Positions 22,598 through 59,774 of a DNA stretch of 64,000 bases are shown in pieces. Both the position numbers and the translations under genes were made by a program. Position 1 is the first letter of the stretch. Each line of letters starts with the position of its first letter. The DNA lies in IMG/VR virus record IMGVR_UViG_3300006204_000010, positions 312 through 64,311 of that record. One strand, written 5' to 3'. The stretch comes from a virus. Its lineage: Duplodnaviria > Caudoviricetes. The notes under the pieces were generated by a model. That model was not told the DNA's origin. It saw nothing but the letters and a program-made list of their open reading frames with translations, and did no database searches.

Positions 22598-22730
22598 ATG
22601 TTCTCCTTTCAAAAATAAACATAAAAATAGCCCGCGTCTACCGTTTCGGATAGACCGAGCTTTGCTGTATAAAATATCATTTGTTTCGATTGCCTATTCA
22701 GGCGCTAATTCTTCTAATAGATGAATATCA

Positions 22731-24029: not shown

Positions 24030-24734
24030 TCAGTATTCCCACTCCTCCAATACTTCCGGATAAAATATCATGTCAATCGAATAGCAGGCTGCGCCTCCGT
24101 CGTCGTTATCAATCATTCTGTGCTCAAAATCAATCCAGCCCATTCCAGAAATAACAGACCAGCCTGCAATCCCTCCATATTCAGTTGGCGGCAAACCCAA
24201 AAACTCATAAAATTCATTCAAAAACGCATACCCTCTGAGCGCAAAATTCCGGTTCAGATGATATTCCGCATCCATAATCTCCCTTTCATAACAAAAGACC
24301 GACTCTCCTGAAATTTCATCATAGAATAGGGCTTTTTCATCTGGCTTATCAAATCCTATCTGATGAAAATTACAATGTTCCCTTGCCATGGCATTCCTAA
24401 TTTCAATATCCACATCTTTTCCATACAATTCAGTCAATTTTCTTCTATATTCCTGATAAGAATTGTTTATCAAAGAATAAGCTCCTATAAGACTTGCCTG
24501 CCGTTTTTTGTTCAGCGTATGTACCCCAAATATACAGCAAATTGTCCCAAGCCCAAGCATAATTGCCGGAATATAAACAGGGGCAGCCTTTAAAAACAAT
24601 TCCTTTTTACATAAACCTTCATTTTCGGGTTTTTTTAATATCTTTTCTGCTTTGAGCACCGCCTTCGCTGTCATTACCGCTGTTCCTACAACCCCAAACG
24701 TTGCAAAACAACATAAAATTATAGATTTTTTCAT
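24030..24734 (-). CDS. DUF6353-like phage protein, paralog 3
   Basis: TFGVVGTAVMTAKA...FLNEFYEFLGL...GW. Confidence 0.6.
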   Translation of the reverse strand: MKKSIILCCFATFGVVGTAVMTAKAVLKAEKILKKPENEGLCKKELFLKAAPVYIPAIMLGLGTICCIFGVHTLNKKRQASLIGAYSLINNSYQEYRRKLTELYGKDVDIEIRNAMAREHCNFHQIGFDKPDEKALFYDEISGESVFCYEREIMDAEYHLNRNFALRGYAFLNEFYEFLGLPPTEYGGIAGWSVISGMGWIDFEHRMIDNDDGGAACYSIDMIFYPEVLEEWEY

Positions 24735-32400: not shown

Positions 32401-32430
32401 GTGATTTCGCTCCAATCGTATTTATTATAT

Positions 32431-39245: not shown

Positions 39246-39958
39246 ATTGTCCACCATCTTGGAACCACCTCCACATATGTAATGCCATTCCCCCAACTAA
39301 TTGTATTTTCCCCCGGCTTTAATTCCGGAAATCCGCTTGTTGCCGTCACATCTGAGTTTCGGTTTGTTGCGCCTTTATAAGCGTCCTGTATCGCGCTGTC
39401 TAAAACAATGCTGCCACTCACGTTTGCGATTTCAATAACGCAGTCTCCAACCGTAAGGCGGCTTTTTCCAGAACCAAAAACCGTTATCTTCGGCAAAGAA
39501 GAAAATCCCGTCGGATTACGCAAAACCGAGCCGTTTACTGACATCTGGATCGATTCCTCGCCCGATTTCAAAAATCTTTGCGGCTTACAATTAAAACTGA
39601 TTGCCGCCCTGCCTGCGTGTTGTAATATATTTTCAACCGCTGCTTCGTCCTGAAACATTGCCATGCGGTAATATTCCGGTTCATAAGAATCTTCCAGACG
39701 CGCATAGCCTGACGCAGAATGCAGCCATTCCGCAACCGCGTTCGCCATGCCTGTAAAATCCTTATCCAGATTCCCAAATGCAATTTGGTACTGACGGCTC
39801 ACATTCTGGTAAGAACCATTGTCAATCACCAGATCGCCATTTCTGCCGGGAATATGAATCACTTCGTAATCCTTTGCCGGAGTCTGATACTCAGGCGGAT
39901 GCTCCACCTGAATACCATAATCCAAAGAGGGCTTACCGTTAAATATCACTACGCCCAT
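39242..39958 (-). CDS. Distal tail protein
   Basis: Follows the tape measure gene; IPGRNGDL..FNCKPQRF..FPELKPGEN..PRWWTI. Confidence 0.75.
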   Translation of the reverse strand: MGVVIFNGKPSLDYGIQVEHPPEYQTPAKDYEVIHIPGRNGDLVIDNGSYQNVSRQYQIAFGNLDKDFTGMANAVAEWLHSASGYARLEDSYEPEYYRMAMFQDEAAVENILQHAGRAAISFNCKPQRFLKSGEESIQMSVNGSVLRNPTGFSSLPKITVFGSGKSRLTVGDCVIEIANVSGSIVLDSAIQDAYKGATNRNSDVTATSGFPELKPGENTISWGNGITYVEVVPRWWTI

Positions 39959-42900: not shown

Positions 42901-45900
42901 TATTTGTTTTGACACTTTAGAAGCATTATCGCTTACTCCTTTTACAAACCCATCAACCAGAAAAGAAGCTGCCGAATAGAACGCCGGGCGTTTGTTGCGT
43001 ATAGAAGCCAACGACTGGTTAATTGGAACAGATAACGCTGTTTTTACATCATTTCCACCTTTTTTAACTGCTGAAACAAATTTATTTATAACTGCGCTTC
43101 CTTCCACGCCGAAATTACTGCGTTTCTTTTTAATAACCGACAACGCTTTCTCTAATATAGAAGAAAATATATCTGAAACTGCTGATTGCTTCGTTTTCAT
43201 TCCATCTGAAAAACCTTTTGTTATGCCTGACGACGCCATCTTTGCCAATTTCTTTATCTCCGATGTAATGCCGCTTAATTTTTGCGGATCAATATCCGAT
43301 GTATCTTTATAATATTTTACAAATGACTGACCGAAAGCTGCTAAATCCTTTCCAAATTCAGCAAGATTAAATTTTTCTATGTTTGATGAACTAACCACAA
43401 GTTCTGCGATTGTTTGCGCTGCATTCGTTGACATCACGATTTTTCCAGAATTTACATCTTCAACCGCTTTTGAATACTCCGACATGCCTTCGCCAAACGC
43501 TTTTAGGTTTTCGCTAAAATTCGATAGGCTTTTTTCCCCAGTAAAAAATCCTTTTACACTATCTGTCTCCGGTAACATATCTACAAGTTCTGCGATTGTT
43601 TGCGCCGCATTCGCTGATGCCGTGATTTTTCCAGAGTCTACTTCTTTCACCGCTTTCGAATACTCCGACATGCCCTTGCCAAACGCTTTTAGGTTTTCGC
43701 TGAAATTCGATAGGCTTTTTTCCCCAGTAAAAAATCCTTTTACACTATCTGTCTCTGGCAACATATTAATGAGTTCCGCGATTGACTGCGCCGCATTCGC
43801 TGATGCCGTGATTTTTCCAGAGTCTACTTCTTTCACCGCTTTTGAATACTGCGACATGCCCTCGCCAAACGCTTTTAGGTTCCCACTGAAATTCGATAGG
43901 CTTTGCTCTCCTGTAAAGAACTCACTGATACCCCCTGTCTCCGGTAACATTTTTACAAGTTCCGCGATTGTTTGCGCCGCATTCGCTGATGCCGTGATTT
44001 TTCCAGAGTCTACTTCTTTTACTGCTTTTGAATACTCTGACATACCTTCGCCAAACGCTTTTAAGTTCTCTCCAAAATTTGACAGGCTTTTTTTTCCGGT
44101 AAAAAACTCGCTTATGCCTCCTGTTTTCGGCAGCGAATCCGTCAGTTCACTTAATACCTTCGCCGCATTCGCAGTTGCCGTTACTGCTTCAGGTTTCACA
44201 TCAGCAACCTCATCCGCATACTTTTTAATTTGAGGGGCAAAGGCCACTAACTCCGCCCCGAAATCAGACAAGGTGCAATCCCCAAAAATAACCGCTTTTA
44301 ATCCACCTGTTTCTGGCAATTCGGAAGCCATTTCGCTCATAATCGACGCCGCTGCCGCTGCGCCTTTGACCGCTTTCGGCTTCACATCCTTTACCGTTTC
44401 CGCAAATAAGGCAATCGACGGTCCGAACAACAAAAGCTCAGAGCCAAAATCCGCAAGGCTCTTATCTCCAAATATCTTTTGCAGCAAACCGTCCTGTCCC
44501 GGAAGGTTGTCCGCAACTTCCGCCATAATTTTAGCCGCTGATGCCGCGCCCTTTACCGCTTTCGGCTTCACGTCCTTTACCGTTTCCGCAAACTCTGCAA
44601 TACTTGGCCCAAACGCCACCAATTCTGTTCCAAAATCCGCAAGAGAAGAACCTCCCGTCAGCCACGATGTAATTCCTTGAATGAAATCCGACACAGTAAA
44701 TAACATTATCATTTCAGCTAGGTTTTTAGCCGCTTTCACTGCGCCTTCGTTCACTAACGCCAACCCAGAAAAGAATGGAGTCGCATTTAAAAGAAAATCA
44801 GATAAATTCGTCCCGATTTGTGGCAGGCTGCTTCCTCCCGTTAAAAAACTTGTAATCCCGGCAATGAGATCCGCCGCCCCAAATATCAATAAAATTCCAG
44901 ATAAAAAGCCCGCCTTTGCCAGAGTATCCGCCGTAATCATGCCCATACCCATAAAAAACGGAGCTGCATTCTCCATAAATTGAGATAAATCCGATCCAAT
45001 CTGGGGAAGGGCGGACGACACTCCGCTCATCAATCCACCGACAATGCCGCCAATAAATTTCCCTATTGCAGTCCCAATCTCTTTTAATAAATCTCCCCCT
45101 TCACTAATCAGCCATTCCAAATATGGAATTTGCGCTAATCCTCCCAACGCCGCCAATACTGCCGCTAACTCAGCAATCACAACTCCAAGCCCAAGAACGC
45201 CTTTCATAGCTAAGGGAGTCAGCTTTGCAACCCCTGCCAAAGCATACATAATCGCAGTCAAAAAACCGATGCCTTCAACCATTTCCACCAAAGAAGAAGT
45301 ATCCATGCCCTTTAAAACTTCAATGACACTATGAAAAAATGTACGAATTAAATTTATAGCCGCCTGAACCAGTTCTGGAAGCCTTTCCGCCAAAGCGTTC
45401 ATAACTCCAATTAAGAAATCCATCAAATAATTTACTATCGCCGGAGCATGTACGGATAATGCTTTGAAAACTTCTTCTACAAGCGCTAACACACCTTCCA
45501 CAATCGCAGGCGCGCATTCCACAACAACGCTGACAATCGCAAGAACAACTGCTTTCACCGCATTCGCAATAGACTCCACGCTCTTAGCGATAATTTCCAA
45601 TATGCCGACAAACAGAATCTCTAACCCAGTCACAAAAGCCATCATTCCGGCAACTCCAGAAGCAGCTAGGGAAGCCAGCCCAATCGATAGGGCCAAAACA
45701 CCTGCCCCACATGCCGCAACCCCTATTCCAAATAAAGCCAAAGCGCCGGATAATCCCAATATTGCCGGAATCAGAGGTCCAAGAACAGCCCCCGCAATGC
45801 CCAACACCGTAAAAGCGGCAGCAAGCGCAAGTATTGCTGTTCCAATTTCAACGAGGCTCATAGAGCCAAGCGCCTTTAAACAAGGCAAAAACACATTCAA

Positions 45901-48756
45901 AGCGATTGACAACACAAGCATAGCGGCAGCCGCTCCAAGTGTCCCTTTCATCGCCTGAAGCGCAACGGCAAGAATAACCATAGAACCGGAAAGCACAGTC
46001 AGTCCTTTTCCGATTTCTTCCCAACCCATTTTCCCTGTTTCCTGAACGACTTCACCGATAATTTTAAGCGCAGCCGAAACCTCAATTAACCCAAGGCCAA
46101 GGGCAATCATGTTTTTAGGCATAATGCGCATAGAGGCGGAAACTGCCAAAAGCGCTCCTGCTACACCGGCAAGTCCCCGCGCCATCGATTCCGTATTCAT
46201 CTGTCCGAAACCAGAAACTACTTTTTCCAATATCAAAAGCGCGGCGGCAAGTTCAATCATTGCAAGGCCGCTTGAAACTTTAAAATTGCCAAACTTTGCC
46301 GCGAACATAAATGCAGAAAGCTCCGCTAATAAAACGCCGACTCCAATAAGCCCTTTTGTTAGCTGTTTGACATCTAGCTGCGCAAGCTGTTTCACTGCTT
46401 TTGTCAAAATATAAATTGCAGATGCAAATAAAATCATGCCGGCTGCGCTTGTTTTCACTTTTCCTCCCCATTTTGAAAGTATAATGGAGGAAGCCAGCAA
46501 TTCTCCAAGCAACACGGTAATGCCAATCAACGCGCCGGTTAATTTATCAGAATCAATACTCGAGATTACATTTAATGCCGCAGACAAAATCAAGATTGCT
46601 GTGGAGAATGCGAGCATCATTGTTCCGGCGCTTGCTAATTGCATTACGCCTTTTCCGCCGAGAGTTTTGCCAAACGCCGCCATTGCAGCCGAAAGTTCAA
46701 CGACTAAAACACTGAGAGCGGCAAGCGCTCCAGAAAGCTTTTCAGAATCAATCAACGCTAACACAAAAAGCGAGCCTGCAAGCACTGCGACCGCTTTTGC
46801 AATTTTCATCAACACGTCTGCTTTCAAAGCCGCCTGATAGGAAATAAGTGTATTCTTCACATTTGCTAATATCAGATTTACATTCGAAAACATGCCGTTC
46901 GCTTTAATTACAGTTTTTTGGATATGTCCAATAAAATTCATAATCCCTGTGCCTATCCCAGCCATCAAACCGCCGTTCATCAAGTCAATCAAGGAATCAA
47001 ACCCTTCTCCATGAACAGCTTTTTGCAGTCCGCCGCCAATTTTACCAAGCGTATCCACAATCATTTCCCCAAACTTTGCTAAAACAGGAGAAATTTCCCG
47101 AAATACAGCCGCCAATTTATCCAGAGCAAGTTTCACAGCCTCGCATATCTTTTGAAAAGGATTCAGCCTAGCTTCTGCCGCCGCCGCAAAATCAATTCCT
47201 AAAAAATCCGAGAATGCTTTTACAATTCCTTTGACATGTTTTCCGATTGCCTGAGAAACAACGCCTGTCACATTTCCAATTTTTTCCGCAGCGCTTCCAA
47301 ACACGCCGCTTTTTTTAATTATATCGTCTAACGCCGTAAGCCATGTTCCAATCTGCCCCGTTACCATAAGAACGGCCGAACCAAGCCCTCCCACGCCTTT
47401 TGTCATTGGAAAGATCGCCTGTACAACTCCGCCAATGATCCTTCCGGCAATATCAAGAACTGCAAACAAACCTTGAAACGTATTTCTCAAATTCACGGCG
47501 TCAACATGGCTAAGTCTCAGATTAGAAGTAAATTCTTTCAGCTTAGAAGTAAAATCAGCAAGGGCAGTGACTGCCGATTGGGGGAAAATATCCTCAAATG
47601 CGAAACGGATCGGCATGAGTATAGAAGAAATCCCCCCTAACGCATTTTTGAATATATCCATAATGTTGTAAAACGCTTCAAAAGGTTTTGCCAGATCCAT
47701 TTCCTGTAAATATTTTGCAGCGGACTGCGCCATACCTGATACCGACTTTGTAAACAATTCTGCTAATGGCCCGATATTCGTTTTTACATCATTAATTCGT
47801 TCTCTCAGAGCGTTAAAAAATTGTACCAACGGTCCATTTTGAACAATTAAAGGTGACATAAATTCTGCGCCAATTCTGGAAAGGGAAGCCTTCACATTTG
47901 ACATAGCTCCCGTAAAAGTCTCATTCGCTTTCTTTGCATGTTCTCCAAACGCATCGTCCATAGCGGCGGCAAATAAATCGAAACTAATTTCCCCTTTCGA
48001 AACCATTTCCCTGACTTCGCCTTCCGTCACCTTCGCCCCATTGCCAACTTTCGTCATATAGTCAGCCAAAGTTGCCGCGGCATTCAACCCTCTGGAAGAA
48101 AGCTGGAGCAACTGGTCTCCCATAAGCCTTCCATTTCCGGACACCGTAGTAAAGATCTGGGAAATACTCTCGTATTCACTATTCGTCATAGCCGCAACGC
48201 CGGTGATTGCCCGTAAAGACGCCTGCATCTTTTCTCCGGCTTCCATGCCCGACGCCGCAAACTGGGAAGCGGCTTTTGCAGCTTCATCATAAGCGTAAGC
48301 CGTACCGTCCACAGAATCCATCGCGTCGTCCATAACAGCCTGCACCTTTGCTTCATCTTTAAGAAGGCCTTGTAACTGGAAATGCGCATTTTCAATATTC
48401 ATCGCCCTGCGCTTTCCGCCGCCGATAATGCTGTCCGTCACAAACCCAACCGTATTCCTTCCAAACCGCATCATCGAATCCGTAAGGTTTGAAATCACAC
48501 GCATTCCAACAATCCCAAACGTAGAAAATCTTTTTTCCAACGCCGCAACTCCTGAAGCAATTCCATCAAGCGATACGTTCTTTGCCGCCTGATTCACATT
48601 ATCAAGCCCTTTTGACGCGCCGTCTAATTTCAACGACTGTTTCAACTTATCAAGCGCGCCCATCGTAGACTGCACGCCTCGTTCAAACTGATGATTATCA
48701 AACCGCATTTCAACCACGCGTTCATCAACCGCTATGCCCATCGTTTTAACCCCCAT
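39949..48756 (-). CDS. Tape measure protein (2935 aa)
   Basis: Very long Ala/Gly-rich ORF with hydrophobic central region, N-terminal tape-measure domain and repeats. Confidence 0.9.
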   Translation of the reverse strand: MGVKTMGIAVDERVVEMRFDNHQFERGVQSTMGALDKLKQSLKLDGASKGLDNVNQAAKNVSLDGIASGVAALEKRFSTFGIVGMRVISNLTDSMMRFGRNTVGFVTDSIIGGGKRRAMNIENAHFQLQGLLKDEAKVQAVMDDAMDSVDGTAYAYDEAAKAASQFAASGMEAGEKMQASLRAITGVAAMTNSEYESISQIFTTVSGNGRLMGDQLLQLSSRGLNAAATLADYMTKVGNGAKVTEGEVREMVSKGEISFDLFAAAMDDAFGEHAKKANETFTGAMSNVKASLSRIGAEFMSPLIVQNGPLVQFFNALRERINDVKTNIGPLAELFTKSVSGMAQSAAKYLQEMDLAKPFEAFYNIMDIFKNALGGISSILMPIRFAFEDIFPQSAVTALADFTSKLKEFTSNLRLSHVDAVNLRNTFQGLFAVLDIAGRIIGGVVQAIFPMTKGVGGLGSAVLMVTGQIGTWLTALDDIIKKSGVFGSAAEKIGNVTGVVSQAIGKHVKGIVKAFSDFLGIDFAAAAEARLNPFQKICEAVKLALDKLAAVFREISPVLAKFGEMIVDTLGKIGGGLQKAVHGEGFDSLIDLMNGGLMAGIGTGIMNFIGHIQKTVIKANGMFSNVNLILANVKNTLISYQAALKADVLMKIAKAVAVLAGSLFVLALIDSEKLSGALAALSVLVVELSAAMAAFGKTLGGKGVMQLASAGTMMLAFSTAILILSAALNVISSIDSDKLTGALIGITVLLGELLASSIILSKWGGKVKTSAAGMILFASAIYILTKAVKQLAQLDVKQLTKGLIGVGVLLAELSAFMFAAKFGNFKVSSGLAMIELAAALLILEKVVSGFGQMNTESMARGLAGVAGALLAVSASMRIMPKNMIALGLGLIEVSAALKIIGEVVQETGKMGWEEIGKGLTVLSGSMVILAVALQAMKGTLGAAAAMLVLSIALNVFLPCLKALGSMSLVEIGTAILALAAAFTVLGIAGAVLGPLIPAILGLSGALALFGIGVAACGAGVLALSIGLASLAASGVAGMMAFVTGLEILFVGILEIIAKSVESIANAVKAVVLAIVSVVVECAPAIVEGVLALVEEVFKALSVHAPAIVNYLMDFLIGVMNALAERLPELVQAAINLIRTFFHSVIEVLKGMDTSSLVEMVEGIGFLTAIMYALAGVAKLTPLAMKGVLGLGVVIAELAAVLAALGGLAQIPYLEWLISEGGDLLKEIGTAIGKFIGGIVGGLMSGVSSALPQIGSDLSQFMENAAPFFMGMGMITADTLAKAGFLSGILLIFGAADLIAGITSFLTGGSSLPQIGTNLSDFLLNATPFFSGLALVNEGAVKAAKNLAEMIMLFTVSDFIQGITSWLTGGSSLADFGTELVAFGPSIAEFAETVKDVKPKAVKGAASAAKIMAEVADNLPGQDGLLQKIFGDKSLADFGSELLLFGPSIALFAETVKDVKPKAVKGAAAAASIMSEMASELPETGGLKAVIFGDCTLSDFGAELVAFAPQIKKYADEVADVKPEAVTATANAAKVLSELTDSLPKTGGISEFFTGKKSLSNFGENLKAFGEGMSEYSKAVKEVDSGKITASANAAQTIAELVKMLPETGGISEFFTGEQSLSNFSGNLKAFGEGMSQYSKAVKEVDSGKITASANAAQSIAELINMLPETDSVKGFFTGEKSLSNFSENLKAFGKGMSEYSKAVKEVDSGKITASANAAQTIAELVDMLPETDSVKGFFTGEKSLSNFSENLKAFGEGMSEYSKAVEDVNSGKIVMSTNAAQTIAELVVSSSNIEKFNLAEFGKDLAAFGQSFVKYYKDTSDIDPQKLSGITSEIKKLAKMASSGITKGFSDGMKTKQSAVSDIFSSILEKALSVIKKKRSNFGVEGSAVINKFVSAVKKGGNDVKTALSVPINQSLASIRNKRPAFYSAASFLVDGFVKGVSDNASKVSKQIQLMAESALTSAQTALGIHSPSKVFTEIGGYVVDGFSNGIDLNKEKAAKSAEALAEVGVQTAKSVLESLKDSDSIFAEYVETVDENGEAVEVTLEQAAEAFKSFRNSVKDSIKDATGMFDEFKTETDIAGKQLIKNLKSQITGITEWAENMQLLAARGVNQGLLKALSDMGPSGANYVNALVTMSGKELKKMNKLYKQRLSLNDKAADEIASSFVEGGKKAAKAYDKGLTKGEMVKSGKKSLKTLAEDSVNAVSNARRKVKESFGGMFEDAVKEMKKSLDYGKGAFQQFCNIFLSGSKNIVASANAVEAASKAITAYGKKLYEESEYYKEDTKNLKAHTDSLTKLQNENSKLQKQLKKAKKSNKKDSKERVQTLKKELEANKKAISSAKDQIISDQKEIAKHTKEVYNNLRSDLSNSVAAFLDPLKASLDSGVDLFKKFESNATLYEEDKKRLAEHQKTLADLEKQRAGLQEELAKYAEMNDTDSRLRWKELYGELEELETQIEDAKNNIKQDEDDMASHSQLTVNKILENMQSQVTGVKQWKGNINKLAGKGVSEGLIAYLKNMGTDGVDYVDQFMKMTSAEISKANAIFKESQNLSAQSLLDGFKDQMKTANDFANGLNQMAKMGFGQDLLDKLGEAGPDSYDYVKAFLTMTPQQVAEFNQEYANSLKLPNTVADKVISSFAYAGSQSAAGFTSALAKMSETGSKENAALVTATNRIGESIGVMLKSNSRTAGSDMVGELAHTLKVKKPTAEKESLDLGKATLKSVKKSISKKKGKKLAKNLVDGMSNGLTDHSSRVSKTAEEVALSAYRAAKKALGIKSPSKMFAKLGAYTDAGFIEGLASGEKDVCQTASDIMGQAIKEASDLLQSDMDTEPTIRPVMDLTEIQNGVGSIGELMNDCGVSASAKLAGFAAGGIQKPGMSMEDKNAGAISRLQETLSNLLDKPAIEQHNTFTITGNDPRAIADEVSCILQKQVERRSAVWA
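43400..44150. repeat. 186-bp (62-aa) tandem repeats within the TMP gene
   Basis: gcgatt(gtt/gac)tgcgc anchors at 43406, 43592, 43778, 43964; degenerate copies continue to about 44900. Confidence 0.9.
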
Positions 48757-52659: not shown

Positions 52660-54519
52660 TTAACCTACTTCCTCACTGCCAGAGCCGCTTACAGTTTCTT
52701 CTAAAGCAATCGCTGAGTACACTCTGGTAAGCGCGCCGGAACATCTGGTTTCAAGCAGTGATTTCTCCTGATTAAAATCAATGTCAAACTGTGTAAAATG
52801 AGTGACCTCGCCGCCTTTTGTCGCGCCAAGTGAATAATCAGCCAGATTTGTAATAATTGCAAGCAGCTTCTTCGTTTTGTTGTCAGAAGTCTTTCTCGTC
52901 TTTCCTTCAAACTGTTCTGCTGTGTAAATGTTCCCCACATTCAATGCAGAAGCAAGTTCCGCCTTCGAAGAATAAATCCGCCTGCCATTTAAGTCACGCG
53001 CCAAAAGCATCACATTGAGCATATGCGGCGTCAGGAATAAATCCGGAGTTCCCGTCCCTTTATACCGCTCCCTCGCATACAAAACCGTATTAATCATTGC
53101 TTCCGCCAGCACATAATTCTCTCCAAAATTCGCCCCCGTGTTTGTACCCTGAAGTTCCTTCCTTGCGGCTGCAACGTCCAAATCTACATGGAGCGTATAC
53201 AAATCGTCGTCCGTCCAAATCGGGCGGATATGGTCGCTTGAAATCTTCGCTTCATCTCCGTCTTCCCTGCCGTCGCCCAGCATAATCGCCGTCGCCAGTT
53301 CTTCATTTAACATCATCTTATCAATGTTATACAGATACTGCACATAATCGAAATCCGTTATGTCAATTATGTCATCCCGATGTAAAGCGTTTTTGACATA
53401 CACCGTCTGCGGGTCAGTCGTTCGTCTTACAAGCTTAAAATTGCCAGTCTGGGATTTCTGCTTGCCTTTCACATACCCTCTCGCCCTTAATGAATCAATA
53501 TTCCGAATATCCACCTGACTGGTACGGATTCTGGAAATCGGGCTTTTATGGACTTTGCTCATTACTACAGAAATCCAGCCCTGATCGCTTGTGATTAGTT
53601 CCGGCGCTCCCGGCCTTACTTCTTTATACTCTGGAAATAAGTTATAAATATTTCCCTCTCCAGTCTGTACAAACCCGCTGCTTACCGCATCATGCTTTAA
53701 ATCATTCTCTGCGGCATAGATTTCAAGGGCAGTCTGGAATGTGCCAATCTGGCTGGACTTCGCCATGCCGACAATCGTCTCCTGATCAGAATGGCTTAAT
53801 ATGCTGTCTTTTGCCTGTCCCTCATTTTCAAATACATTATGTTTCATTGTGTCGTCTCCTCCTTCATTCTTTTTGCCGCCGTCAGATTCGCCATCCTTTC
53901 CCATGGCTTCCCCGACCAACGCATAAACAACCGTTTTCTGTTTTTCGCTCAGGTTATCAAATATCTCTTTTACCGTTTCGCCTTCTTCCGTTTTCTTTTC
54001 CTCCTTCTTTGTTTCTGGTTCTTCGCTGCCTTTTGAATCCATTTTTTCCTCCTTCTTCTCGTCGGAATGGGATAAACTAAGCGGTTCCCCAGTATAAATA
54101 ATGCCTTCTTCTTCTGACTCCTCCCCATGGGCAAGCACGGAATCAATAAATGCCCCGGGATTCGCTCCGGCTAATACAAGACTAACTTCCCGGATCGCGC
54201 CATGAAGCACATTTGCCCCTTGCTGTTTCAACTGATTCGCATAAATAGACAATGCCGAAACATCGCCATGCTCTACCAGCAACTTTGCATTTTTGCCGGA
54301 TTCCGTATCATTCAATGTACAATACGCATAAACGCCGTCATCTCTGTTTTCAAGCAGCGCGTGCCCAAGCACATTATACGGCTCATTGTGCCTATGGTTC
54401 CATACCAGTGGAACCGTCTGCCCGTCATTTTCCTTAAATGCGTCTTTTAAGATTGTGCGCCCATCGGAACACTTTAAGTTATTGCGGGTAGCCCAGCCAC
54501 TAAAATCAAATTTCTTCAT
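52660..54519 (-). CDS. Prohead protease - scaffold - major capsid protein fusion (HK97 fold)
   Basis: N-terminal LVWNH..LSI..EVSLV..ANP.A protease motifs; acidic linker; capsid domain. Confidence 0.85.
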   Translation of the reverse strand: MKKFDFSGWATRNNLKCSDGRTILKDAFKENDGQTVPLVWNHRHNEPYNVLGHALLENRDDGVYAYCTLNDTESGKNAKLLVEHGDVSALSIYANQLKQQGANVLHGAIREVSLVLAGANPGAFIDSVLAHGEESEEEGIIYTGEPLSLSHSDEKKEEKMDSKGSEEPETKKEEKKTEEGETVKEIFDNLSEKQKTVVYALVGEAMGKDGESDGGKKNEGGDDTMKHNVFENEGQAKDSILSHSDQETIVGMAKSSQIGTFQTALEIYAAENDLKHDAVSSGFVQTGEGNIYNLFPEYKEVRPGAPELITSDQGWISVVMSKVHKSPISRIRTSQVDIRNIDSLRARGYVKGKQKSQTGNFKLVRRTTDPQTVYVKNALHRDDIIDITDFDYVQYLYNIDKMMLNEELATAIMLGDGREDGDEAKISSDHIRPIWTDDDLYTLHVDLDVAAARKELQGTNTGANFGENYVLAEAMINTVLYARERYKGTGTPDLFLTPHMLNVMLLARDLNGRRIYSSKAELASALNVGNIYTAEQFEGKTRKTSDNKTKKLLAIITNLADYSLGATKGGEVTHFTQFDIDFNQEKSLLETRCSGALTRVYSAIALEETVSGSGSEEVG

Positions 54520-54540
54520 TTTGAATTTTTACCTCCAAAC

Positions 54541-54575
54541 AAAAAAAATCCCACAGATCATTTAAGATCTATGGG
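54541..54575 (-). terminator. Intrinsic terminator just upstream of the capsid SD
   Basis: cccacagatc/gatctatggg stem with an 8-nt U-run on the minus strand. Confidence 0.6.
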
Positions 54576-54722
54576 TAAATCTGAATTGTTCCATTTATTA
54601 AATTTTTATAATCTGATTGATTTTTTAAAGTGCGCTATACTATATATATTAAAACAAAAAATACAGTATACTATATATAGAAACAAAGTATAGCACGCTG
54701 TATAGAAAAAGGAGGAATGACC

Positions 54723-54803
54723 ATGTGTTTTCCTATTGATGGAGCAGCTATAATTGTAAAAGCGGTTGCTGAATATTTGGCTGAAAATTGCCATGAATCA
54801 TAA
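54723..54803 (+). CDS. 26-aa antisense-oriented peptide (MCFPIDGAAIIVKAVAEYLAENCHES)
   Basis: AAAGGAGG SD; downstream plus-strand terminator agcctgatgc...gtatcgggttttt. Confidence 0.4.
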   Translation: MCFPIDGAAIIVKAVAEYLAENCHES

Positions 54804-54876
54804 AAAATTAGCCTGATGCTATTCACAGTAGTATCGGGTTTTTCTTTTTCCTCCATTGCTCACGAATAAAGACCGC

Positions 54877-55263
54877 TTATTGCGGACGTTTGCCAATCAT
54901 GCTTTCTAACATTTCATTGTAAGTTTGATTAAACAAATCCTCATACTCTTTCATATAACGCTGATAGTTTTCCGCGTTATTCTTAGAAGCTTCGCTAAAC
55001 CAATTCGCGCCGTATTTCCGTGTATACTTTTCATTAATCTGAGGTATCAGCACACGGTTTGCATAATCGGCCGTTTTGTTATAGGCTTTCGCCCAGTTCT
55101 TTTTCACTTGTTTGTCATACTTTTTTTGTTCTTTCTTTACGTTCCGGCTTCTTGCCGCTTCTCCAATTTCCCTGCCTCCCGAATGCCCTTTCGGATACGG
55201 CTGATACCGACGGACGCCCCACTTCATTCCCAGTATGCCATGATGTTGTAAATTAGTTTCCAT
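54877..55263 (-). CDS. HHG..KWG-module small basic protein
   Basis: [27 protein letters not shown]. Confidence 0.7.
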   Translation of the reverse strand: METNLQHHGILGMKWGVRRYQPYPKGHSGGREIGEAARSRNVKKEQKKYDKQVKKNWAKAYNKTADYANRVLIPQINEKYTRKYGANWFSEASKNNAENYQRYMKEYEDLFNQTYNEMLESMIGKRPQ

Positions 55264-55271
55264 TGTAAAAT

Positions 55272-55505
55272 TCACCTCCCCGAATATAACATGTGTATAG
55301 GATCATCTTCAAGGCCGCATTCTTTTAAATCATACCCCGCTATGATAAGATCATTTCTGATTGTGTCAAGCGCAGTATAATACGCATGTTGTACTCCTTC
55401 TTCAAATTTACTGTCCGGATTAGCTTTTGCGTTCGCGGTAGCGTCATCGGCATTACTAATTAACCGTGCTACAATATGATTAAATAGTTCATTATCCATC
55501 GTCAT
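55272..55505 (-). CDS. Putative immunity protein, copy 2 (77 aa)
   Basis: About 80% identical to the adjacent copy; SD GAAAGAGGTG. Confidence 0.6.
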   Translation of the reverse strand: MTMDNELFNHIVARLISNADDATANAKANPDSKFEEGVQHAYYTALDTIRNDLIIAGYDLKECGLEDDPIHMLYSGR

Positions 55506-55545
55506 ATTCACCTCTTTCTTTCCTCCGTTACTCACAAAAATCATA

Positions 55546-55767
55546 TTATGCGTATTTATTAATAGGATCTTCTTCAAGACCACACTTCTTAAGATCATAC
55601 TCCGCTATAATCAAATCATTTCTTATTGTATCAAGCACTGTATAATATGCAAGTTGTACTCCCTCTTCAAATTCACTATTAGGGTCTTTTTTTGCATTGA
55701 CAACGGCATCATTTGCATTACTAATTAATCGCGCTATAATATGATTAAAAAGTTCATCAGTCATCAT
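55546..55767 (-). CDS. Putative immunity protein, copy 1 (73 aa)
   Basis: Start overlaps the portal-fusion stop; small acidic helical protein. Confidence 0.6.
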   Translation of the reverse strand: MMTDELFNHIIARLISNANDAVVNAKKDPNSEFEEGVQLAYYTVLDTIRNDLIIAEYDLKKCGLEEDPINKYA

Positions 55768-57379
55768 ATTCGCCCCTTTCTTTTAACTCAACAATCCGAT
55801 TCTCAATAGATTTACGAAGATTTACAATTTCTTTATTCCAATGTTTAATTAATCCGTTTTTTTTTCGCTCAGAATAAGTGTCCCATTCTAGAATATGTTT
55901 CGACGGATTAGAAATTTTTGATTTATGCAATTCTATTTCCTTTTGCAGACTCCGCATACCCCTTTTTATAGAAGTCACACTTTGCTTGGCAAGATCAGAT
56001 TCTTTCTTCTTTTTCTGACCTGTTCCTATTTTACCACCCTCATCAGATTTTGCAACCCCTTTTCCGCCGTCTCTGTCTATCGGATACGGAGGTCCATTTT
56101 GGACGCCCCATTTCTGCCCTTTTACACCATGATGCGCCAGATGTTCTACCACTTCATCATCCGGAGTTTCCTCCTCTGACTTTGGAACTGTACCAGCAGA
56201 TTCACTCAGATTCTTGTTTCGCAGCTCATCAGCTTTCGGATCATCTGAAGGCTTCATTCCGATTACCTGACGAATCTCATTAGAAGTCATAATCTCATTC
56301 CGTGTAAACTTGTCCGCAATTTCCGAAATGTCGGCCACAGGAACTAGTCGGAACGGGTCACGGAAGAACTCAATAGACTGAAACTGGGAACGGGCGGTCT
56401 TTGTCAAAAACTTCCGCTTCATCTCATCGGCTATCGCCGACAAAATAGGCTCAATCGTACGGTTATAATAATTTAACATCGTTTTTTCATCCGCAGTCCC
56501 ATCTAAAATTCCCTGAGTGATACCTAACTGGCCGTAAAGCATACTCGTCAAATATTCAATCTGGGACATCAGATTGTTTTCTACCGGACGGTTCAACTGT
56601 GTAATATGTTCTGTGCCATCAGTATAAGCAATCCCATACTTAGAACCTGCTAATTGACTTTCAATATCTTTCCGACGGTTTTCCGCCTGCGCCCGTCTGG
56701 CTTCTGTCTTAATTACATAAGGAAGCTGAATAATTAAATCTAATTTACCGGAACCATTTTGTTCATCTATCGCATCTAACAGATTCAATTTCCGAATCAA
56801 ACGCTGCATTGTCGAATTTGGTTCATTCATTACTGCATAAAGCGGATTTTCAACAATCGCTACCATGCTCTTTTCTGCAAGAACATCTTCCTTTTTTCCA
56901 GTCCGCTCATTATAAACTAAAACCTTGACATGTTGTGGATACCACTCTAAAATCTTTCCAGTCCGCATAGTCTCAATATCATAAGCTCCAGTTTCTTCCG
57001 GATTATCTGTCGTGTCAACCGGAACAATGGCAACGCATCCCTCGTCTAACATCGACATAACTACATCTTGTAAAAACGCCCGCCCTGTCTGATCCATGTT
57101 TGCGGATACCGTAAGACAGTTATGAAGCCCCGAATCGATTGTAGAAAGAAAACGGTTGTTTTCATCTAAACGCACATGAAATAAATCCACTGCGGCGGAG
57201 TCTAACGCAATTCTGTTATAAACAGACGTTACAATGGATCGTTCATTCCCTCTTGAGAAACGTATCCGGTCAGGTCGGTATGAATATCCCATACCTACAT
57301 TCTTATAAAACCCTGTAGGGTCTTTATTGAAAAAAGCATTCCAAGCATGTTTTAACCTAGAATGAAAAGAAAACTCCAT
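55757..57379 (-). CDS. Portal protein with C-terminal HHG..KWG module and putative toxin tip
   Basis: Portal core between terminase and capsid ends near ADELRNKNL; then acidic linker, HLAHHGVKGQKWG and about 100 aa basic helical domain. Confidence 0.85.
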   Translation of the reverse strand: MEFSFHSRLKHAWNAFFNKDPTGFYKNVGMGYSYRPDRIRFSRGNERSIVTSVYNRIALDSAAVDLFHVRLDENNRFLSTIDSGLHNCLTVSANMDQTGRAFLQDVVMSMLDEGCVAIVPVDTTDNPEETGAYDIETMRTGKILEWYPQHVKVLVYNERTGKKEDVLAEKSMVAIVENPLYAVMNEPNSTMQRLIRKLNLLDAIDEQNGSGKLDLIIQLPYVIKTEARRAQAENRRKDIESQLAGSKYGIAYTDGTEHITQLNRPVENNLMSQIEYLTSMLYGQLGITQGILDGTADEKTMLNYYNRTIEPILSAIADEMKRKFLTKTARSQFQSIEFFRDPFRLVPVADISEIADKFTRNEIMTSNEIRQVIGMKPSDDPKADELRNKNLSESAGTVPKSEEETPDDEVVEHLAHHGVKGQKWGVQNGPPYPIDRDGGKGVAKSDEGGKIGTGQKKKKESDLAKQSVTSIKRGMRSLQKEIELHKSKISNPSKHILEWDTYSERKKNGLIKHWNKEIVNLRKSIENRIVELKERGEYDD

Positions 57380-57474: not shown

Positions 57475-59217
57475 TCACTCAAACGCTTCCCTGTTTAGCT
57501 TATACGCTACATAAGCGTCCATCATCGCCGCCACAGCGTCAATCTTTTGTTCATACCTCTTTTTCAGCAATTTCCGGTTCCCATTCGTATCTTCTAACGT
57601 AATGCAATTTCCCATGGCAAACGTCATTAATTCCTCATCAAACAAGAGCATACGCTCCTCCGAAAGTTTCTTCAATTCGCCAAGCGGCACTGATTCCGTC
57701 TTTGCTCCCTGAATCACTTTCTCAATCCCAAACGGGCCATTCTCAGCTTCCCATCTTGCTACAAATTCTTTCGCATTGTATGGATCATATCCAAAACACC
57801 GGACGTCATACTCCCGCTTAATAATATGCCGTTCCAGATCCTCATACACCTGCGTCATGTCTAATACCGTTCCTTCTAAAACCACCAGACTCCCTTCCGC
57901 CATAAACTGTTCATACTTCACCCGCATCGCAGCCGGAAGCCGCATCAAAGTCAGAGACGTAATATAGTTTCTGGTCTTCACCCCGAACGCCTCATTTGAT
58001 AATGGGAACAAAAACGTAAACGCGCAAAAGTCATCGCCCTGTGACAGATCCGCGCCAAGAGCGCATGGCATTTGCCAATAATCCCTTTTACGGTGTGGAA
58101 GCGTTTCTTCATATGTAAAGAAATAGGTGTAACCTTCCATCGGAATCCCAAACCGCTTCGCCAAAATATCATTCCGCACAGCCGGGGCATTTTCCGCCCG
58201 CTCCACATCTTTCTGGTATGTTTCATAAGTAACTGTCTTTCCAATATTCGGGTTCGCCTTCAGCCACATTTCCGGACGTGAAACTTCATCAATCGAATCC
58301 AGCTTATACCACCAAATAGAAACATTATGCGCCGGATACTCCCCTTTTAGAATCTTCATCAACTCCATTTTGATTGTATCGCCGCTTCCATTTCGGACTG
58401 TCCCTTCCGAACTTGTCGCAATAATCAAATAGTCGTCCACTTTAGAAGCTCCCTGTTCAATCGCCCCAACAACGTCTTCCCTGACGTCACCCGAAAGCCA
58501 TTCGTCCACAGTCGCAATTTTACAACGAAGCCCTTGCAATTTATCAATCCGCATCGGACGCACCTCAATTAAAGAACCTGTAAGAAAATTTTCAATTCCT
58601 TTTTTGGTTGAAGCAAGCTTTGTACGATCCGCTTTTGAACCCGTCGTATTTTGTAAAGAACCTTCCGTCAAAAATTGAAACAAAGGCCCTCTCGCACGGG
58701 TAATCGCGGTTTTAATCGGCGTAATCACTTCTTCCGCCTGTTTCATTGTAGGACCGGTTGTAATCTGATGTGTGGTAGTCGTATCAACATTCTCAAAATA
58801 CGACTGAATACAGGAATCATATAAAGACTTCGCCGCTCCACGCCCGACAATCAGATATTGCTTATTAATCAAACGTTTTCGGATTACTTTATTCACAAAA
58901 TGCCCTCCATGTCCGTCCGGATACGGCTCATAAACACTTCGTTCTACAAAATAATACCATCCAAAAACCTGTTCACCCCAGAGTTTAAAACTGTCAAGCA
59001 AAACCAAATCAGATCCATCTGTCAAAGTAAGTTCTTCTTCACAGTAAGCAATCCAGCCTTCCACTGCTTTGTCATCATACCAATACTCCGGATTTGCAAT
59101 CAATCTGTCAATACGGTTCATCTCCAAATCAATTTCCCTGCAAACCGGAATATCGCCCCGGATCACGGCGTCCCGAAACATGCCATAATACTTTGGCACA
59201 GCCGTATTTGATAACAT
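57475..59217 (-). CDS. terL: Terminase large subunit
   Basis: IVGRGAAKS Walker A, ATVDEW Walker B, GADLSQGDD nuclease motif, KIDAVAA. Confidence 0.9.
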   Translation of the reverse strand: MLSNTAVPKYYGMFRDAVIRGDIPVCREIDLEMNRIDRLIANPEYWYDDKAVEGWIAYCEEELTLTDGSDLVLLDSFKLWGEQVFGWYYFVERSVYEPYPDGHGGHFVNKVIRKRLINKQYLIVGRGAAKSLYDSCIQSYFENVDTTTTHQITTGPTMKQAEEVITPIKTAITRARGPLFQFLTEGSLQNTTGSKADRTKLASTKKGIENFLTGSLIEVRPMRIDKLQGLRCKIATVDEWLSGDVREDVVGAIEQGASKVDDYLIIATSSEGTVRNGSGDTIKMELMKILKGEYPAHNVSIWWYKLDSIDEVSRPEMWLKANPNIGKTVTYETYQKDVERAENAPAVRNDILAKRFGIPMEGYTYFFTYEETLPHRKRDYWQMPCALGADLSQGDDFCAFTFLFPLSNEAFGVKTRNYITSLTLMRLPAAMRVKYEQFMAEGSLVVLEGTVLDMTQVYEDLERHIIKREYDVRCFGYDPYNAKEFVARWEAENGPFGIEKVIQGAKTESVPLGELKKLSEERMLLFDEELMTFAMGNCITLEDTNGNRKLLKKRYEQKIDAVAAMMDAYVAYKLNREAFE

Positions 59218-59231: not shown

Positions 59232-59774
59232 TTATTTTTTCAACTGTTTAATAGCCAAAGCAATCGCAATCGCAGAGCTTCCAATGCCAGCAATATCACC
59301 GGCAACCTCCAGAATATTGGATACATAATTCTGCCCTTTAGAAACCGTTTCCGACTCTTTTGCAAAAATATCATTGTACCGTTTTTCCAAATTATACCGT
59401 TCAATCTGTTCCCGAAGCTCCTTGTCCGTCATTTTACTCAAATCCAGAGTTTCTTTTTTACTTGAATCACTGATTTTACCCCGATGTATATTCTTTGCCT
59501 GATTAATAAGTCCTGAAGCAGCATCCACTGCTTTCTTCGTTTTTTCTATCTTTGCAGTTGCCGGATCGCCTTTTGACAATTTATTGTATTGCTCCTCCAG
59601 ATTCATTCTTTTTACTTTAGAAGCAAGTTCTTCATCGCTCATAGAACTCACCTTCTTTTTTTTAGCCGCTTCTCCAACCTCTTTTCCACCTGAATGTCCT
59701 TTGGGATATGGCTGATACCGACGGATGCCCCATTTCATGCCAAGGACGCCGTGATGGTTTAAATAATTTTTCAT
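59232..59774 (-). CDS. HHG..KWG-module protein with internal MSDEEL/MTDKEL repeats
   Basis: [27 protein letters not shown]; two M(S/T)DxEL...R.NLE..YN repeats. Confidence 0.7.

What the first reader, a model, noticed from the sequence alone, without database searches (positions are those of the whole stretch)
55272..57379. Portal protein fused to a toxin-like tip, followed by two tandem immunity-like genes
Seen: the portal ORF runs about 130 aa past the normal portal end, through an acidic linker (SEEETPDDEVVE), the HHGVKGQKWGVQNGPPYP module and a basic helical domain (..SIKRGMRSLQKEIELHKSKISNPSKHILEWD..LIKHWNKEIVNLRKSI..). The next gene overlaps its stop and is duplicated in tandem (73 and 77 aa, about 80% identical over 65 aa). 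Established: phage polymorphic toxins are known as C-terminal tips on MuF/minor head proteins, with a small downstream immunity gene. Inference: here the carrier is the portal itself; from memory the tip resembles C-termini seen on MuF/Rhs proteins. A portal-borne effector with duplicated immunity would be an unusual, possibly undescribed virion-delivered toxin system.
Basis: partly seen in the sequence, partly recalled or inferred. Interest (0 to 1): 0.88.

Follow-up and report, generated by a model that had tools for sequence, protein, structure and literature searches.

The report
Swappable toxin-like cassette on phage portal
A temperate gut-bacterial phage has a swappable, toxin-like end piece with its own small partner genes attached to its portal protein; the layout copies the known phage "MuF toxins", but this end piece and its partner are large families with no annotation and no tested function.

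Summary

- **Anatomy.** The 540-aa portal ORF (55757-57379, minus strand) has five parts. They are a portal core, an acidic linker, a DUF7211 tag, a Gly/Lys linker and an 81-aa helical hairpin (pLDDT 94.9).
- **Swappable tips.** Portals 84-99% identical in the core carry other tips behind the same tag (Ntox50, DUF4258, DUF6883, one unnamed). 101 of the 120 closest clusters carry no tip.
- **Own partner genes.** The three other tip types whose loci were fetched each have a different small gene right after the tip. Orphan partner genes collect in arrays.
- **A fixed gene pair.** The hairpin and a 73-aa acidic partner always travel together: 40 of 40 assessable loci from the partner side and 79 of 80 from the hairpin side.
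- **Other carriers.** The pair also sits on MuF, minor-capsid-2, VG15, a second portal lineage and one Rhs protein. MuF-type carriers often have an L27/Prp-type F|A cleavage motif just before the hairpin.
- **A divergence hot spot.** In a near-identical phage the flanking genes are about 100% identical, but the cassette is only 66-77% identical.

Neither family matches any Pfam, NCBIfam or PADLOC model or any solved fold; PHROGs was scanned with the whole portal and both partners and named neither. Portal-fused effectors are already in the literature (PMC5512222), and this scan noted portal toxin cassettes on other DNA before. I therefore rate this a new variant of a known kind.

The parts
56195..57379 (-). 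Portal core, residues 1-395
   Evidence: PF04860 matches residues 50-372 at E 1.7e-17, and phrog_12 (portal) at E 3.8e-51. It is 97% identical to the portal core of L005.
56159..56194 (-). Acidic linker, residues 396-407
   Evidence: Read directly from the sequence. All tip-bearing relatives have an acidic stretch at this position.
56099..56158 (-). DUF7211 tag, residues 408-427, opened by L-A-H followed by H-G
   Evidence: PF23847 scores 25 bits and 29.5 bits, over the cut-off. All 19 extended portal relatives carry the tag motif at about residues 415-418.
56003..56098 (-). Gly/Lys-rich linker, residues 428-459
   Evidence: Read from the sequence. Here it lacks the (D/N)LQ(F/L)F|A motif that precedes the same domain on MuF carriers.
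55760..56002 (-). 81-aa helical-hairpin tip, residues 460-540: the exchangeable effector or toxin-like domain
   Evidence: AF2 gives pLDDT 94.9 with helices 9-31 and 45-76. 585 cluster representatives match at E<=1e-3; in 149 of the best 150 the domain ends within 12 aa of the C-terminus. No Pfam, NCBIfam or PADLOC model matches; PHROGs, scanned with the whole portal, named no family for it.
55546..55767 (-). Partner gene 1 (73 aa, pI 4.4), overlapping the portal stop by 11 nt: the presumed cognate immunity-like protein
   Evidence: AF2 predicts a helical hairpin with pLDDT 92.2. The family has 1002 clusters at 90% identity. It is linked to the hairpin tip in 40 of 40 and 79 of 80 loci.
55272..55505 (-). 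Partner gene 2 (77 aa), a tandem paralog
   Evidence: It is 77% identical to partner 1. It is 82% identical to the cognate partner of the L005 tip allele and 89% to an orphan copy in L196.
54877..55263 (-). Separate 128-aa DUF7211-tagged basic protein, a further cargo gene in the same variable region
   Evidence: PF23847 at E 7e-10. In L005 it is deleted, leaving about 30 nt of its 3' end. It is present in L196.
52660..54519 (-). Prohead protease fused to the major capsid protein, the candidate enzyme for cutting the tag
   Evidence: phrog_3270 at E 4.5e-227 and Peptidase_S78. It holds nine [LIMFV]-x-H sites against 3.9 expected; five lie at matching places in the spacer in all seven relatives.

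Best explanation
The 3' end of the portal gene of this temperate siphovirus carries an exchangeable effector-plus-partner cassette of the polymorphic-toxin type. The phage encodes a large serine recombinase and a 2935-aa tape measure protein.

The portal core is joined, through an acidic linker and a DUF7211 tag, to an 81-aa helical hairpin. The two small acidic helical proteins encoded next are its neutralising partners, that is, immunity-type proteins. The first is probably the cognate one. The second most resembles the partner of a different tip allele.

**Proposed mechanism (inferred steps marked).**
1. Twelve copies of the extension enter the procapsid with the portal. Portal C-termini point into the capsid (established knowledge of portal structure).
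2. The prohead protease may cut at the L-x-H site that opens the tag. This would free a protein of about 129 aa (inferred).
3. That protein leaves with the DNA into the next cell (inferred).
4. There the hairpin binds an unknown, conserved cellular target, probably without enzymatic activity (inferred).
5. In the producing cell, and perhaps in lysogens, the partner blocks the hairpin, plausibly by packing helix against helix (inferred).

On MuF-type carriers an L27/Prp-type F|A motif sits directly before the same hairpin. This suggests release by the host protease Prp (inferred).
For: **Shown here**
- **Variable tips on one carrier.** Of the 120 closest portal clusters, 101 have no tip and 19 have tag plus tip. 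The 19 comprise 8 hairpin, 3 Ntox50 (E 1e-16 to 1e-19), 2 of DUF4258 type (one matched by Pfam at E 1e-5, the other placed by likeness of its tail), 1 DUF6883 (E 2e-12), 3 of an unnamed class and 2 truncated.
- **Each tip type examined has its own following gene.** Ntox50 has a 70-aa gene, DUF4258 a 68-aa gene and DUF6883 a 54-aa gene. The loci of the unnamed class were not fetched.
- **Orphan partners persist.** The Ntox50 phage L196 keeps two hairpin partners. The hairpin phage L005 keeps the 70-aa gene that follows Ntox50.
- **Strict linkage of hairpin and partner.** 40 of 40 assessable loci from the partner side and 79 of 80 from the hairpin side.
- **Many carriers.** Among the best 150 matches, 37 carry Phage_Mu_F, 8 Phage_min_cap2, 7 VG15, 4 DUF7211 alone, 2 a portal and 1 a prohead protease domain. 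A second, unrelated portal lineage also carries it, as does an RHS-repeat protein of a Myxococcota MAG.
- **Partner homologs beside cellular carriers.** Three of the five Myxococcota-class loci have a partner homolog downstream (hmmsearch E 2e-6, 2.4e-6 and 4e-4; hhalign 84%, E 7e-6).
- **A divergence hot spot.** Against L005 the TerL, capsid and tail genes are about 100% identical at the DNA level. The tip is 71-73% and the partner genes 66-77% identical.
- **Charge.** The partner is always acidic (median pI 4.4), and the window's tip is basic (pI 9.4).
- **Processing motifs.** A strict (D/N)(L/M)Q(F/L/Y)F(A/S) motif precedes the domain in 52 of 125 carriers, and a looser form in 29 more. It fits the published L27/Prp site (PMC9405229, PMC5744158). 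L-x-H sites are enriched in the capsid precursor at places shared by its relatives.
- **Lifestyle.** The phage encodes a large serine recombinase. Relatives lie in contigs of 155-304 kb.

**From the literature.** MuF polymorphic toxins have the same layout, and tested members are toxic and neutralised by adjacent genes (PMC5576092, PMC11699363).
Against: - **No functional data.** No experiment or model shows that the hairpin is toxic, that the partner binds it, or that it is cut from the portal or ejected.
- **No catalytic fold.** An 81-aa two-helix hairpin is not a known catalytic fold. Searches of solved structures gave only generic hairpins.
- **Even conservation.** Hairpin and partner are both fairly conserved across carriers (about 42-60%). 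This is less diversified than many toxin-immunity pairs.
- **Cyanobacterial homologs.** Stand-alone hairpin homologs in cyanobacteria sit at one conserved chromosomal place next to an M50B peptidase. Their partner is not detectably related to the phage one. That pattern looks more like a housekeeping pair than a mobile toxin.
- **Missing Prp motif.** The window's own tip lacks the Prp motif, so its release rests only on the untested L-x-H idea. If it stays tethered to the portal it cannot be delivered.
- **Late expression.** Late-gene toxins in a cell that is about to lyse need no immunity. Expression of the partner genes in lysogens was not shown. The promoter scan found 13 sigma-70-like sites against 7.1 +/- 2.5 in shuffles, which I judged not convincing.
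Confidence: 0.6

Rival explanations
1. The cassette is a delivered effector but not a toxin. The hairpin is ejected with the DNA and has a non-lethal job early in infection, such as host take-over, blocking a defence system or steering the lysis-lysogeny choice. The small protein acts as a timing inhibitor or chaperone that keeps the hairpin inert or loadable in the producing cell.
For: - The architecture and linkage data are the same as for the main reading.
- The hairpin has no enzyme fold and looks like a binding module.
- Its core motif is conserved from Clostridia to Myxococcota and cyanobacteria, which suggests a conserved cellular target.
- The literature treats head-borne fusions on MuF and portal proteins as early-phase effectors, not only as toxins (PMC5512222).
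Against: - On the same portal the hairpin alternates with Pfam-named toxin domains or toxin-associated domains (Ntox50, DUF4258, DUF6883).
- It ends an RHS-repeat protein, a classic interbacterial toxin carrier.
- Orphan partner genes are kept in phages that lack the hairpin. That fits protection against incoming hairpins better than a chaperone role.
Confidence: 0.25
2. The extension is a structural part of the portal: an inward crown or barrel extension that helps organise or retain DNA, as in the P22 portal. The small proteins are head-assembly accessories.
For: - The extension is helical and sits at the portal C-terminus; that this end faces the capsid interior is established knowledge of portal structure, not tested here.
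- The small genes lie inside the head-gene block.
Against: - 101 of the 120 closest portal relatives have no extension.
- In others the hairpin is replaced by unrelated toxin-family domains.
- The same domain ends MuF, protease and Rhs proteins.
- The model is a hairpin, not one long barrel helix.
- The cassette diverges to 66-77% while the flanks are about 100% identical.
Confidence: 0.07
3. The hairpin and partner form an addiction-type (toxin-antitoxin) module that acts only inside the cell carrying the prophage, to stabilise the prophage. Its position on the portal gene is an accident of recombination, with no delivery by the particle.
For: - Stand-alone two-gene versions with overlapping reading frames exist in cyanobacterial chromosomes.
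- Overlapping start and stop codons and an acidic partner are typical of type II toxin-antitoxin pairs.
Against: - In phages the hairpin is nearly always fused in frame to a head protein. Four classified carrier families (MuF type, VG15, DUF7211 tag, portal) and a single prohead-protease hit carry it, as do two unrelated portal lineages.
- It is often preceded by a processing motif. Neither feature has a purpose for an intracellular addiction module.
Confidence: 0.05
4. The fusion is an artefact: an assembly or sequencing error removed a stop codon between the portal gene and a separate DUF7211 gene.
For: In related phages (L001-L004) DUF7211 proteins are separate genes beside the terminase and portal genes.
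Against: In-frame fusions occur in 19 protein clusters with five different tips, from many independent assemblies and samples.
Confidence: 0.02

Closest known systems
MuF polymorphic toxins of temperate phages (Zhang et al. 2012, PMC3482391; Jamet et al. 2017, PMC5576092; tested members Apk2 and Bxa, PMC11699363)
   Same: - A head-module protein is the constant carrier, with exchangeable C-terminal domains.
- A small specific gene follows directly, and extra or orphan immunity-type genes occur.
- The phage is temperate and its hosts are gut Bacillota.
- The very same hairpin-plus-partner module is found on MuF carriers.
   Different: - The carrier here is the portal, with no MuF domain. That would mean 12 copies per particle, against the one to two reported for SPP1 gp7 (PMC5576092).
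- A DUF7211 tag sits at the junction.
- The tip is an unannotated helical hairpin, not a known enzyme.
Portal-fused packaged effectors and 'polyvalent proteins' (Iyer et al. 2017, PMC5512222)
   Same: Effector domains fused to the portal domain and predicted to be injected with the DNA.
   Different: - That paper names PBECR RNase, 2H phosphoesterase and InPase fusions.
- In the passages I read it does not describe this hairpin, its obligate partner gene, the DUF7211 junction or the allelic swapping on one portal lineage.
T4 capsid-targeting sequence on the internal proteins IPI-III and Alt (review PMC3012670)
   Same: A short shared peptide on a diverse set of head-packed, injected proteins. 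In T4 it is removed by the prohead protease (my own knowledge for the cleavage; for the shared tag).
   Different: - DUF7211 is unrelated in sequence.
- Here it lies inside a fusion, between the portal and the cargo, rather than at an N-terminus.
- Its role as a loading or cleavage signal is only inferred.
Rhs C-terminal toxin and immunity cassettes
   Same: The same hairpin ends an RHS-repeat protein behind a DPxGL motif (motif read), and a partner homolog is encoded next.
   Different: Only one carrier was confirmed as Rhs; in all, 5 of 201 genomes sampled in that class had the hairpin. Those versions have an extra conserved stretch in front of the hairpin.
Prp-processed proteins of Bacillota (ribosomal protein L27; phage 80alpha capsid and scaffold proteins; PMC5744158, PMC9405229)
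   Same: MuF-borne copies of the hairpin are preceded by (D/N)LQ(F/L)F|A, the published Prp site.
   Different: - Known Prp sites are N-terminal leaders, whereas here the motif is internal, just before a C-terminal domain.
- Cleavage is untested, and the window's portal tip has lost the motif.

Membership tests
Polymorphic toxin system (sensu Zhang 2012; Jamet 2017) | A constant N-terminal carrier with alternative C-terminal domains in close relatives | tested here: met
   Five tip classes sit on portals 84-99% identical in the core.
Polymorphic toxin system (sensu Zhang 2012; Jamet 2017) | The C-terminal domain is shared with other, unrelated carrier families | tested here: met
   The hairpin occurs on MuF, min_cap2, VG15, DUF7211, a second portal lineage and a prohead protease, and on an RHS-repeat protein.
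Polymorphic toxin system (sensu Zhang 2012; Jamet 2017) | A small cognate gene lies directly downstream and changes with the tip | tested here: met
   Linkage holds in 40 of 40 and 79 of 80 loci. The Ntox50, DUF4258 and DUF6883 tips have different small genes behind them.
Polymorphic toxin system (sensu Zhang 2012; Jamet 2017) | Orphan or multiple immunity genes in arrays | tested here: met
   The window has 2 partner genes and L005 has 3 plus a fragment and a foreign orphan. L196 has 2 orphans without the hairpin.
Polymorphic toxin system (sensu Zhang 2012; Jamet 2017) | The C-terminal domain is toxic and the cognate protein neutralises it | not testable with these tools
   This needs expression assays.
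MuF toxin family | An N-terminal MuF domain (PF04233, PF06152 or relatives) | tested here: not met
   Only Phage_portal and DUF7211 were found in the 540-aa protein. It works like a MuF toxin but is not a member.
Phage_portal (PF04860) | A match to the family profile over its cut-off | tested here: met
   64 bits against a cut-off of 39.1; phrog_12 at E 3.8e-51.
DUF7211 (PF23847) | A match to the 25-position profile over 27 bits | tested here: inconclusive
   25 bits in hmmscan of the protein, but 29.5 bits, over the cut-off, in the six-frame search. The stored Pfam annotation of the identical protein lists PF23847.
Prp (L27-type) cleavage substrates | The motif (D/N)LQ(F/L)F|A directly before the released part | tested here: not met
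   The window's tip has a Lys-rich stretch at that position. The motif is present in 52 (strict) plus 29 (looser) of 125 other carriers and in the window's DUF7211-DUF6883 protein.
P22-type portal barrel | A long C-terminal helix conserved among related portals | tested here: not met
   The model is a hairpin. The extension is absent in 101 of 120 relatives and is exchangeable.

The most novel reading that the evidence does not exclude
The hairpin and its acidic partner are a previously unrecognised, non-enzymatic toxin-immunity family. Both phage-head carriers (MuF, portal, DUF7211-tagged proteins) and Rhs proteins use it. A protease the phage does not need to encode sets it free: the host's essential L27 protease Prp on MuF carriers, or the prohead protease at the L-x-H opening of the tag on portal carriers. 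The portal version would deliver twelve copies per particle.
Probability: 0.35. Interest if true: 0.8.

Novelty: new variant of a known kind. Interest (0 to 1): 0.62.

Why it matters
- **A large unannotated pair.** The hairpin has 585 cluster representatives at 50% identity, and the partner has 1002 clusters at 90% identity. Neither has any annotation or a studied member. The pair is one of the common end pieces of head proteins in gut Clostridia phages.
- **A natural experiment.** The portal lineage swaps at least five tips behind one tag. Comparing these forms could show how phages load and release cargo.
- **A testable biochemical link.** The Prp-type motif before the hairpin on MuF carriers predicts that an essential host ribosomal-protein protease activates phage-borne effectors.
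- **Cultured starting points.** Cultured hosts with MuF-borne copies are Mediterraneibacter hominis NSJ-55, M. massiliensis Marseille-P2086 and Peptoanaerobacter stomatis ACC19a. These make experiments possible.

Tried and rejected
**Searches that named neither family**
- Pfam, NCBIfam and PADLOC have no model for the hairpin or the partner. PHROGs, scanned with the whole portal and both partners, named neither; its unnamed families matched the tag and linker region.
- Foldseek against the PDB, for both models, gave only generic helical hairpins with E above 0.5.
- Profile searches of PDB sequences gave nothing below E 0.06.
- The ESM Atlas returned only 'hypothetical protein' clusters.
- tblastn of the hairpin against 50,697 GenBank phage records gave no match.

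- The search for related loci with alignment A3 failed for lack of a conserved stretch. I repeated it with the closer alignment A4.

**Leads that did not hold**
- The promoter scan of 54400-56500 found 13 sigma-70-like sites against 7.1 +/- 2.5 in shuffles, none convincing. I make no claim that the partner genes are expressed in lysogens.
- The cyanobacterial downstream gene is not detectably related to the partner family (E 0.11).
- My recollection that the 54-aa gene at 22731-22895 is DUF4926 got only a weak, sub-threshold match (E 0.036).
- I considered a mirror-tree test of co-evolution and dropped it, because adjacent genes share history whether or not their products bind.
Full report
**1. 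What is in the window**

The window is almost all of a 64,311-bp IMG/VR virus record that CheckV rates 100% complete. All the genes discussed here are on the minus strand.

The head module reads in this order:
- a 180-aa DUF7211 protein (59232-59774);
- the large terminase (57475-59217);
- a 540-aa portal ORF (55757-57379);
- two small paralogous genes (55546-55767 and 55272-55505);
- a 128-aa DUF7211 protein (54877-55263);
- a gap of about 350 bp;
- a prohead protease fused to the major capsid protein (52660-54519).

The phage also encodes a large serine recombinase (30817-32415) and a 2935-aa tape measure protein. It is therefore a temperate siphovirus. Close relatives lie in contigs of 155-304 kb, which suggests they are prophages.

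**2.

- The portal Pfam domain ends at residue 372.
- The ORF then continues through an acidic linker and a DUF7211 match at residues 408-426. That match is borderline in one search and over the cut-off in another.
- A Gly/Lys-rich linker follows, and then 81 residues that AlphaFold2 predicts with pLDDT 94.9 as a two-helix hairpin.
- The next gene overlaps the portal stop by 11 nt.
- That gene is duplicated in tandem, and the two copies are 77% identical over 69 aa.
- Both small proteins are acidic (pI 4.4-4.5). The first, the only one modelled, is predicted as a helical hairpin with a short tail (pLDDT 92.2).

**3. The portal is a carrier of swappable tips**

I searched with the portal core alone. 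Among the 120 best clusters (81-100% identical in the core):
- 101 are under 430 aa long (402-427 aa) and have no extension;
- 19 have the DUF7211 tag at about residue 415, followed by a tip.

The 19 tips fall into these groups:

| Tip behind the tag | Clusters | Pfam support |
|---|---|---|
| Hairpin | 8 | no Pfam model |
| Ntox50 (PF15542) | 3 | E 1e-16 to 1e-19 |
| DUF4258 type | 2 | one at E 1e-5; the other placed by likeness of its tail |
| DUF6883 | 1 | E 2e-12 |
| Unnamed class | 3 | none |
| Truncated | 2 | - |

One Ntox50 portal is 99% identical to the window's portal in the core.

Each of the three other tip types whose loci I fetched is followed by its own small gene, overlapping or adjacent:
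- Ntox50 by a 70-aa gene;
- DUF4258 by a 68-aa gene;
- DUF6883 by a 54-aa gene.

Orphan partner genes persist. The Ntox50 phage L196 keeps two intact or nearly intact hairpin-partner genes. The hairpin phage L005 keeps a copy of the 70-aa gene that follows Ntox50 in L196, differing at three residues. The window's second partner is 82% identical to the cognate partner of the L005 tip allele.

At the DNA level, the window and L005 are about 100% identical across TerL, the start of the portal gene, and the capsid and tail genes. They are only 71-73% identical in the tip and 66-77% in the partner genes. At the protein level the portal core is 97% identical and the hairpin 62%.

This is the pattern that defines polymorphic toxin loci.

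**4. The hairpin and its partner are an obligate pair with many carriers**

- **Spread of the hairpin.** An exhaustive HMMER search with the 81-aa hairpin found 585 cluster representatives at E<=1e-3. In 149 of the best 150 the domain ends within 12 residues of the C-terminus.
- **Carriers.** Pfam on those 150 gave Phage_Mu_F 37, Phage_min_cap2 8, VG15 7, DUF7211 4, Phage_portal 2 and Peptidase_S78 1.
- **A second portal lineage.** A portal from a phage with a separate HK97-type capsid gene also carries the hairpin and the partner.
- **Spread of the partner.** A profile of the small protein found 1002 clusters at 90% identity, none with a Pfam domain.
- **Linkage from the partner side.** In IMG/VR, 40 of 40 assessable loci have the hairpin ending at or overlapping the partner's start.
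- **Linkage from the hairpin side.** 79 of 80 loci have the partner directly downstream.
- **Hosts.** In species-representative genomes the hosts are gut and rumen Clostridia and relatives. They include cultured Mediterraneibacter hominis, M. massiliensis and Peptoanaerobacter stomatis.

**5. The module also occurs outside phages**

- In a Myxococcota MAG the hairpin ends a 1339-aa RHS-repeat protein (PF05593, E 1e-23), behind a DPxGL motif. The next gene is a partner homolog (hhalign 84%, E 7e-6; hmmsearch E 2e-6).
- Of 201 genomes sampled from that class, 5 have the hairpin. Four of these lie in open frames of 721-2242 aa and one in a short 127-aa frame at a contig end. Three of the five have a partner homolog downstream.
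- In cyanobacteria a hairpin homolog of about 60 aa stands alone (hhalign 98%, E 4e-14). It is followed by an overlapping acidic gene that is not detectably related to the partner family. In the genomes I inspected it sits beside an M50B-like peptidase gene.

**6. Processing signals**

- **Prp-type motif.** On MuF-type carriers the hairpin is directly preceded by (D/N)LQ(F/L/Y)F(A/S). The strict form occurs in 52 of 125 assessable carriers and a looser form in 29 more. This fits the published cleavage motif of the L27 protease Prp, which also trims phage 80alpha capsid and scaffold proteins between F and A (PMC9405229, PMC5744158).
- **Not in the papers I read.** I found no mention of this link in the MuF-toxin or Prp papers that I read.
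- **The window's own tip.** It has lost the motif. The window's DUF7211-DUF6883 protein, and the portal-DUF6883 fusion in L199, keep it.
- **The tag's opening.** On the portal, the tag is opened by L-A-H followed by H-G. In the protease-capsid precursor, [LIMFV]-x-H occurs nine times against 3.9 expected. Five of these sites lie at matching places in the spacer in all seven relatives.
- **Status.** Cutting of the tag by the prohead protease is therefore plausible, but no cleavage data exist. Other agents of this scan reached the same idea for DUF7211 on other DNA. I treat that as a lead, not as evidence.

**7. Interpretation**

The architecture, meaning a swappable effector-plus-partner cassette on the portal, is well supported; I put it at about 0.9.

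That the hairpin is a growth-inhibiting toxin and the small proteins are immunity proteins is the best reading, at about 0.6. Four points support it:
- the hairpin alternates with Pfam-named toxin or toxin-associated domains on the same carrier;
- it ends an Rhs protein;
- it always has a private, acidic partner;
- orphan partners are kept where the hairpin is absent.

Four points weigh against it:
- the fold is a bare hairpin with no catalytic look;
- no solved structure is related to it;
- the cyanobacterial pairs look like housekeeping genes;
- nothing shows that the tip is released from the portal.

The main rival reading is a non-lethal early effector with a timing inhibitor.

**8. Comparison with what is known**

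- **MuF polymorphic toxins** have the same logic (PMC3482391, PMC5576092, PMC11699363). This protein has no MuF domain, so it works like one but is not a member.
- **Portal-fused effectors** (PBECR, 2H and InPase domains) were reported computationally in PMC5512222.
- **This scan** has also noted portal toxin cassettes on other DNA.
- **What appears new** is the hairpin-partner family itself with its strict pairing and wide spread; the DUF7211 tag as the junction on a portal lineage with at least five alternative tips; and the Prp-type motif in front of the hairpin on MuF carriers.

**9. Limits**

Tip-partner binding, read support at the junction and expression were therefore not examined.

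Noticed in passing
window 22731-23461 (- strand): A second toxin-like cassette. A DUF7211-tagged protein carries an N-L-Q-Y-F-A (Prp-type) motif and a DUF6883 domain (E 7e-15). An overlapping 54-aa gene follows, with only a weak DUF4926 match (E 0.036). The same DUF6883 plus 54-aa pair sits on a portal in L199.
   Followed up: partly
window 59232-59774, 56099-56158, 54877-55263, 22892-23461: Four DUF7211 tags occur in one genome, on four different C-terminal parts. The related phages L001-L004 each show one stand-alone tagged gene beside the terminase or portal genes in the stretch examined.
   Followed up: partly
window 52660-54519 (- strand): The protease-capsid precursor holds nine [LIMFV]-x-H sites against 3.9 expected. 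Five sit at matching places in the spacer in all seven relatives. They are possible maturation cleavage sites that match the opening of the DUF7211 tag.
   Followed up: partly
window 54520-54876: A non-coding gap of about 350 bp lies inside the head operon, with a terminator-like hairpin at 54550-54575 (- strand) just before the protease-capsid gene. The gap is 91-94% identical in L005.
   Followed up: no
window 59232-59774 (- strand): The 180-aa DUF7211 protein upstream of TerL contains a twice-repeated (S/T)D-E-L ... N-L-E motif, a LEM-like helix-extension-helix match (E 2.4e-5) and a hydrophobic C-terminus. No separate small terminase was recognised near it.
   Followed up: no
P0273, P0285, P0288 (portal relatives): A fifth tip class of about 110 aa on the same portal and tag. 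It is rich in conserved His, Gly and Trp and has no Pfam match. P0284 looks like a deleted remnant of it.
   Followed up: no
L182, L185, L187, L192, L195 (cyanobacterial genomes): Stand-alone hairpin homologs of about 60 aa with an overlapping acidic gene of about 85 aa. In L187, L192 and L195 the pair lies beside an M50B-like peptidase gene, which was Pfam-confirmed only in L192. The function is unknown and no library names it.
   Followed up: partly
P0008, P0231 (partner-family members): NCBI names some partner-family proteins from a Eubacterium sp. MAG 'transposase'. This looks like an annotation error.
   Followed up: no
window 39949-48756 and 30817-32415 (- strand): A very long tape measure protein (2935 aa, TMP_3 at its N-terminus) and a large serine recombinase (532 aa). 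No tyrosine integrase was found.
   Followed up: partly
window 21773-22612 and 24030-24773 (- strand): Two DUF6353 paralogs (E 3e-90 and 4e-54) with membrane-like N-termini flank the DUF6883 cassette.
   Followed up: no
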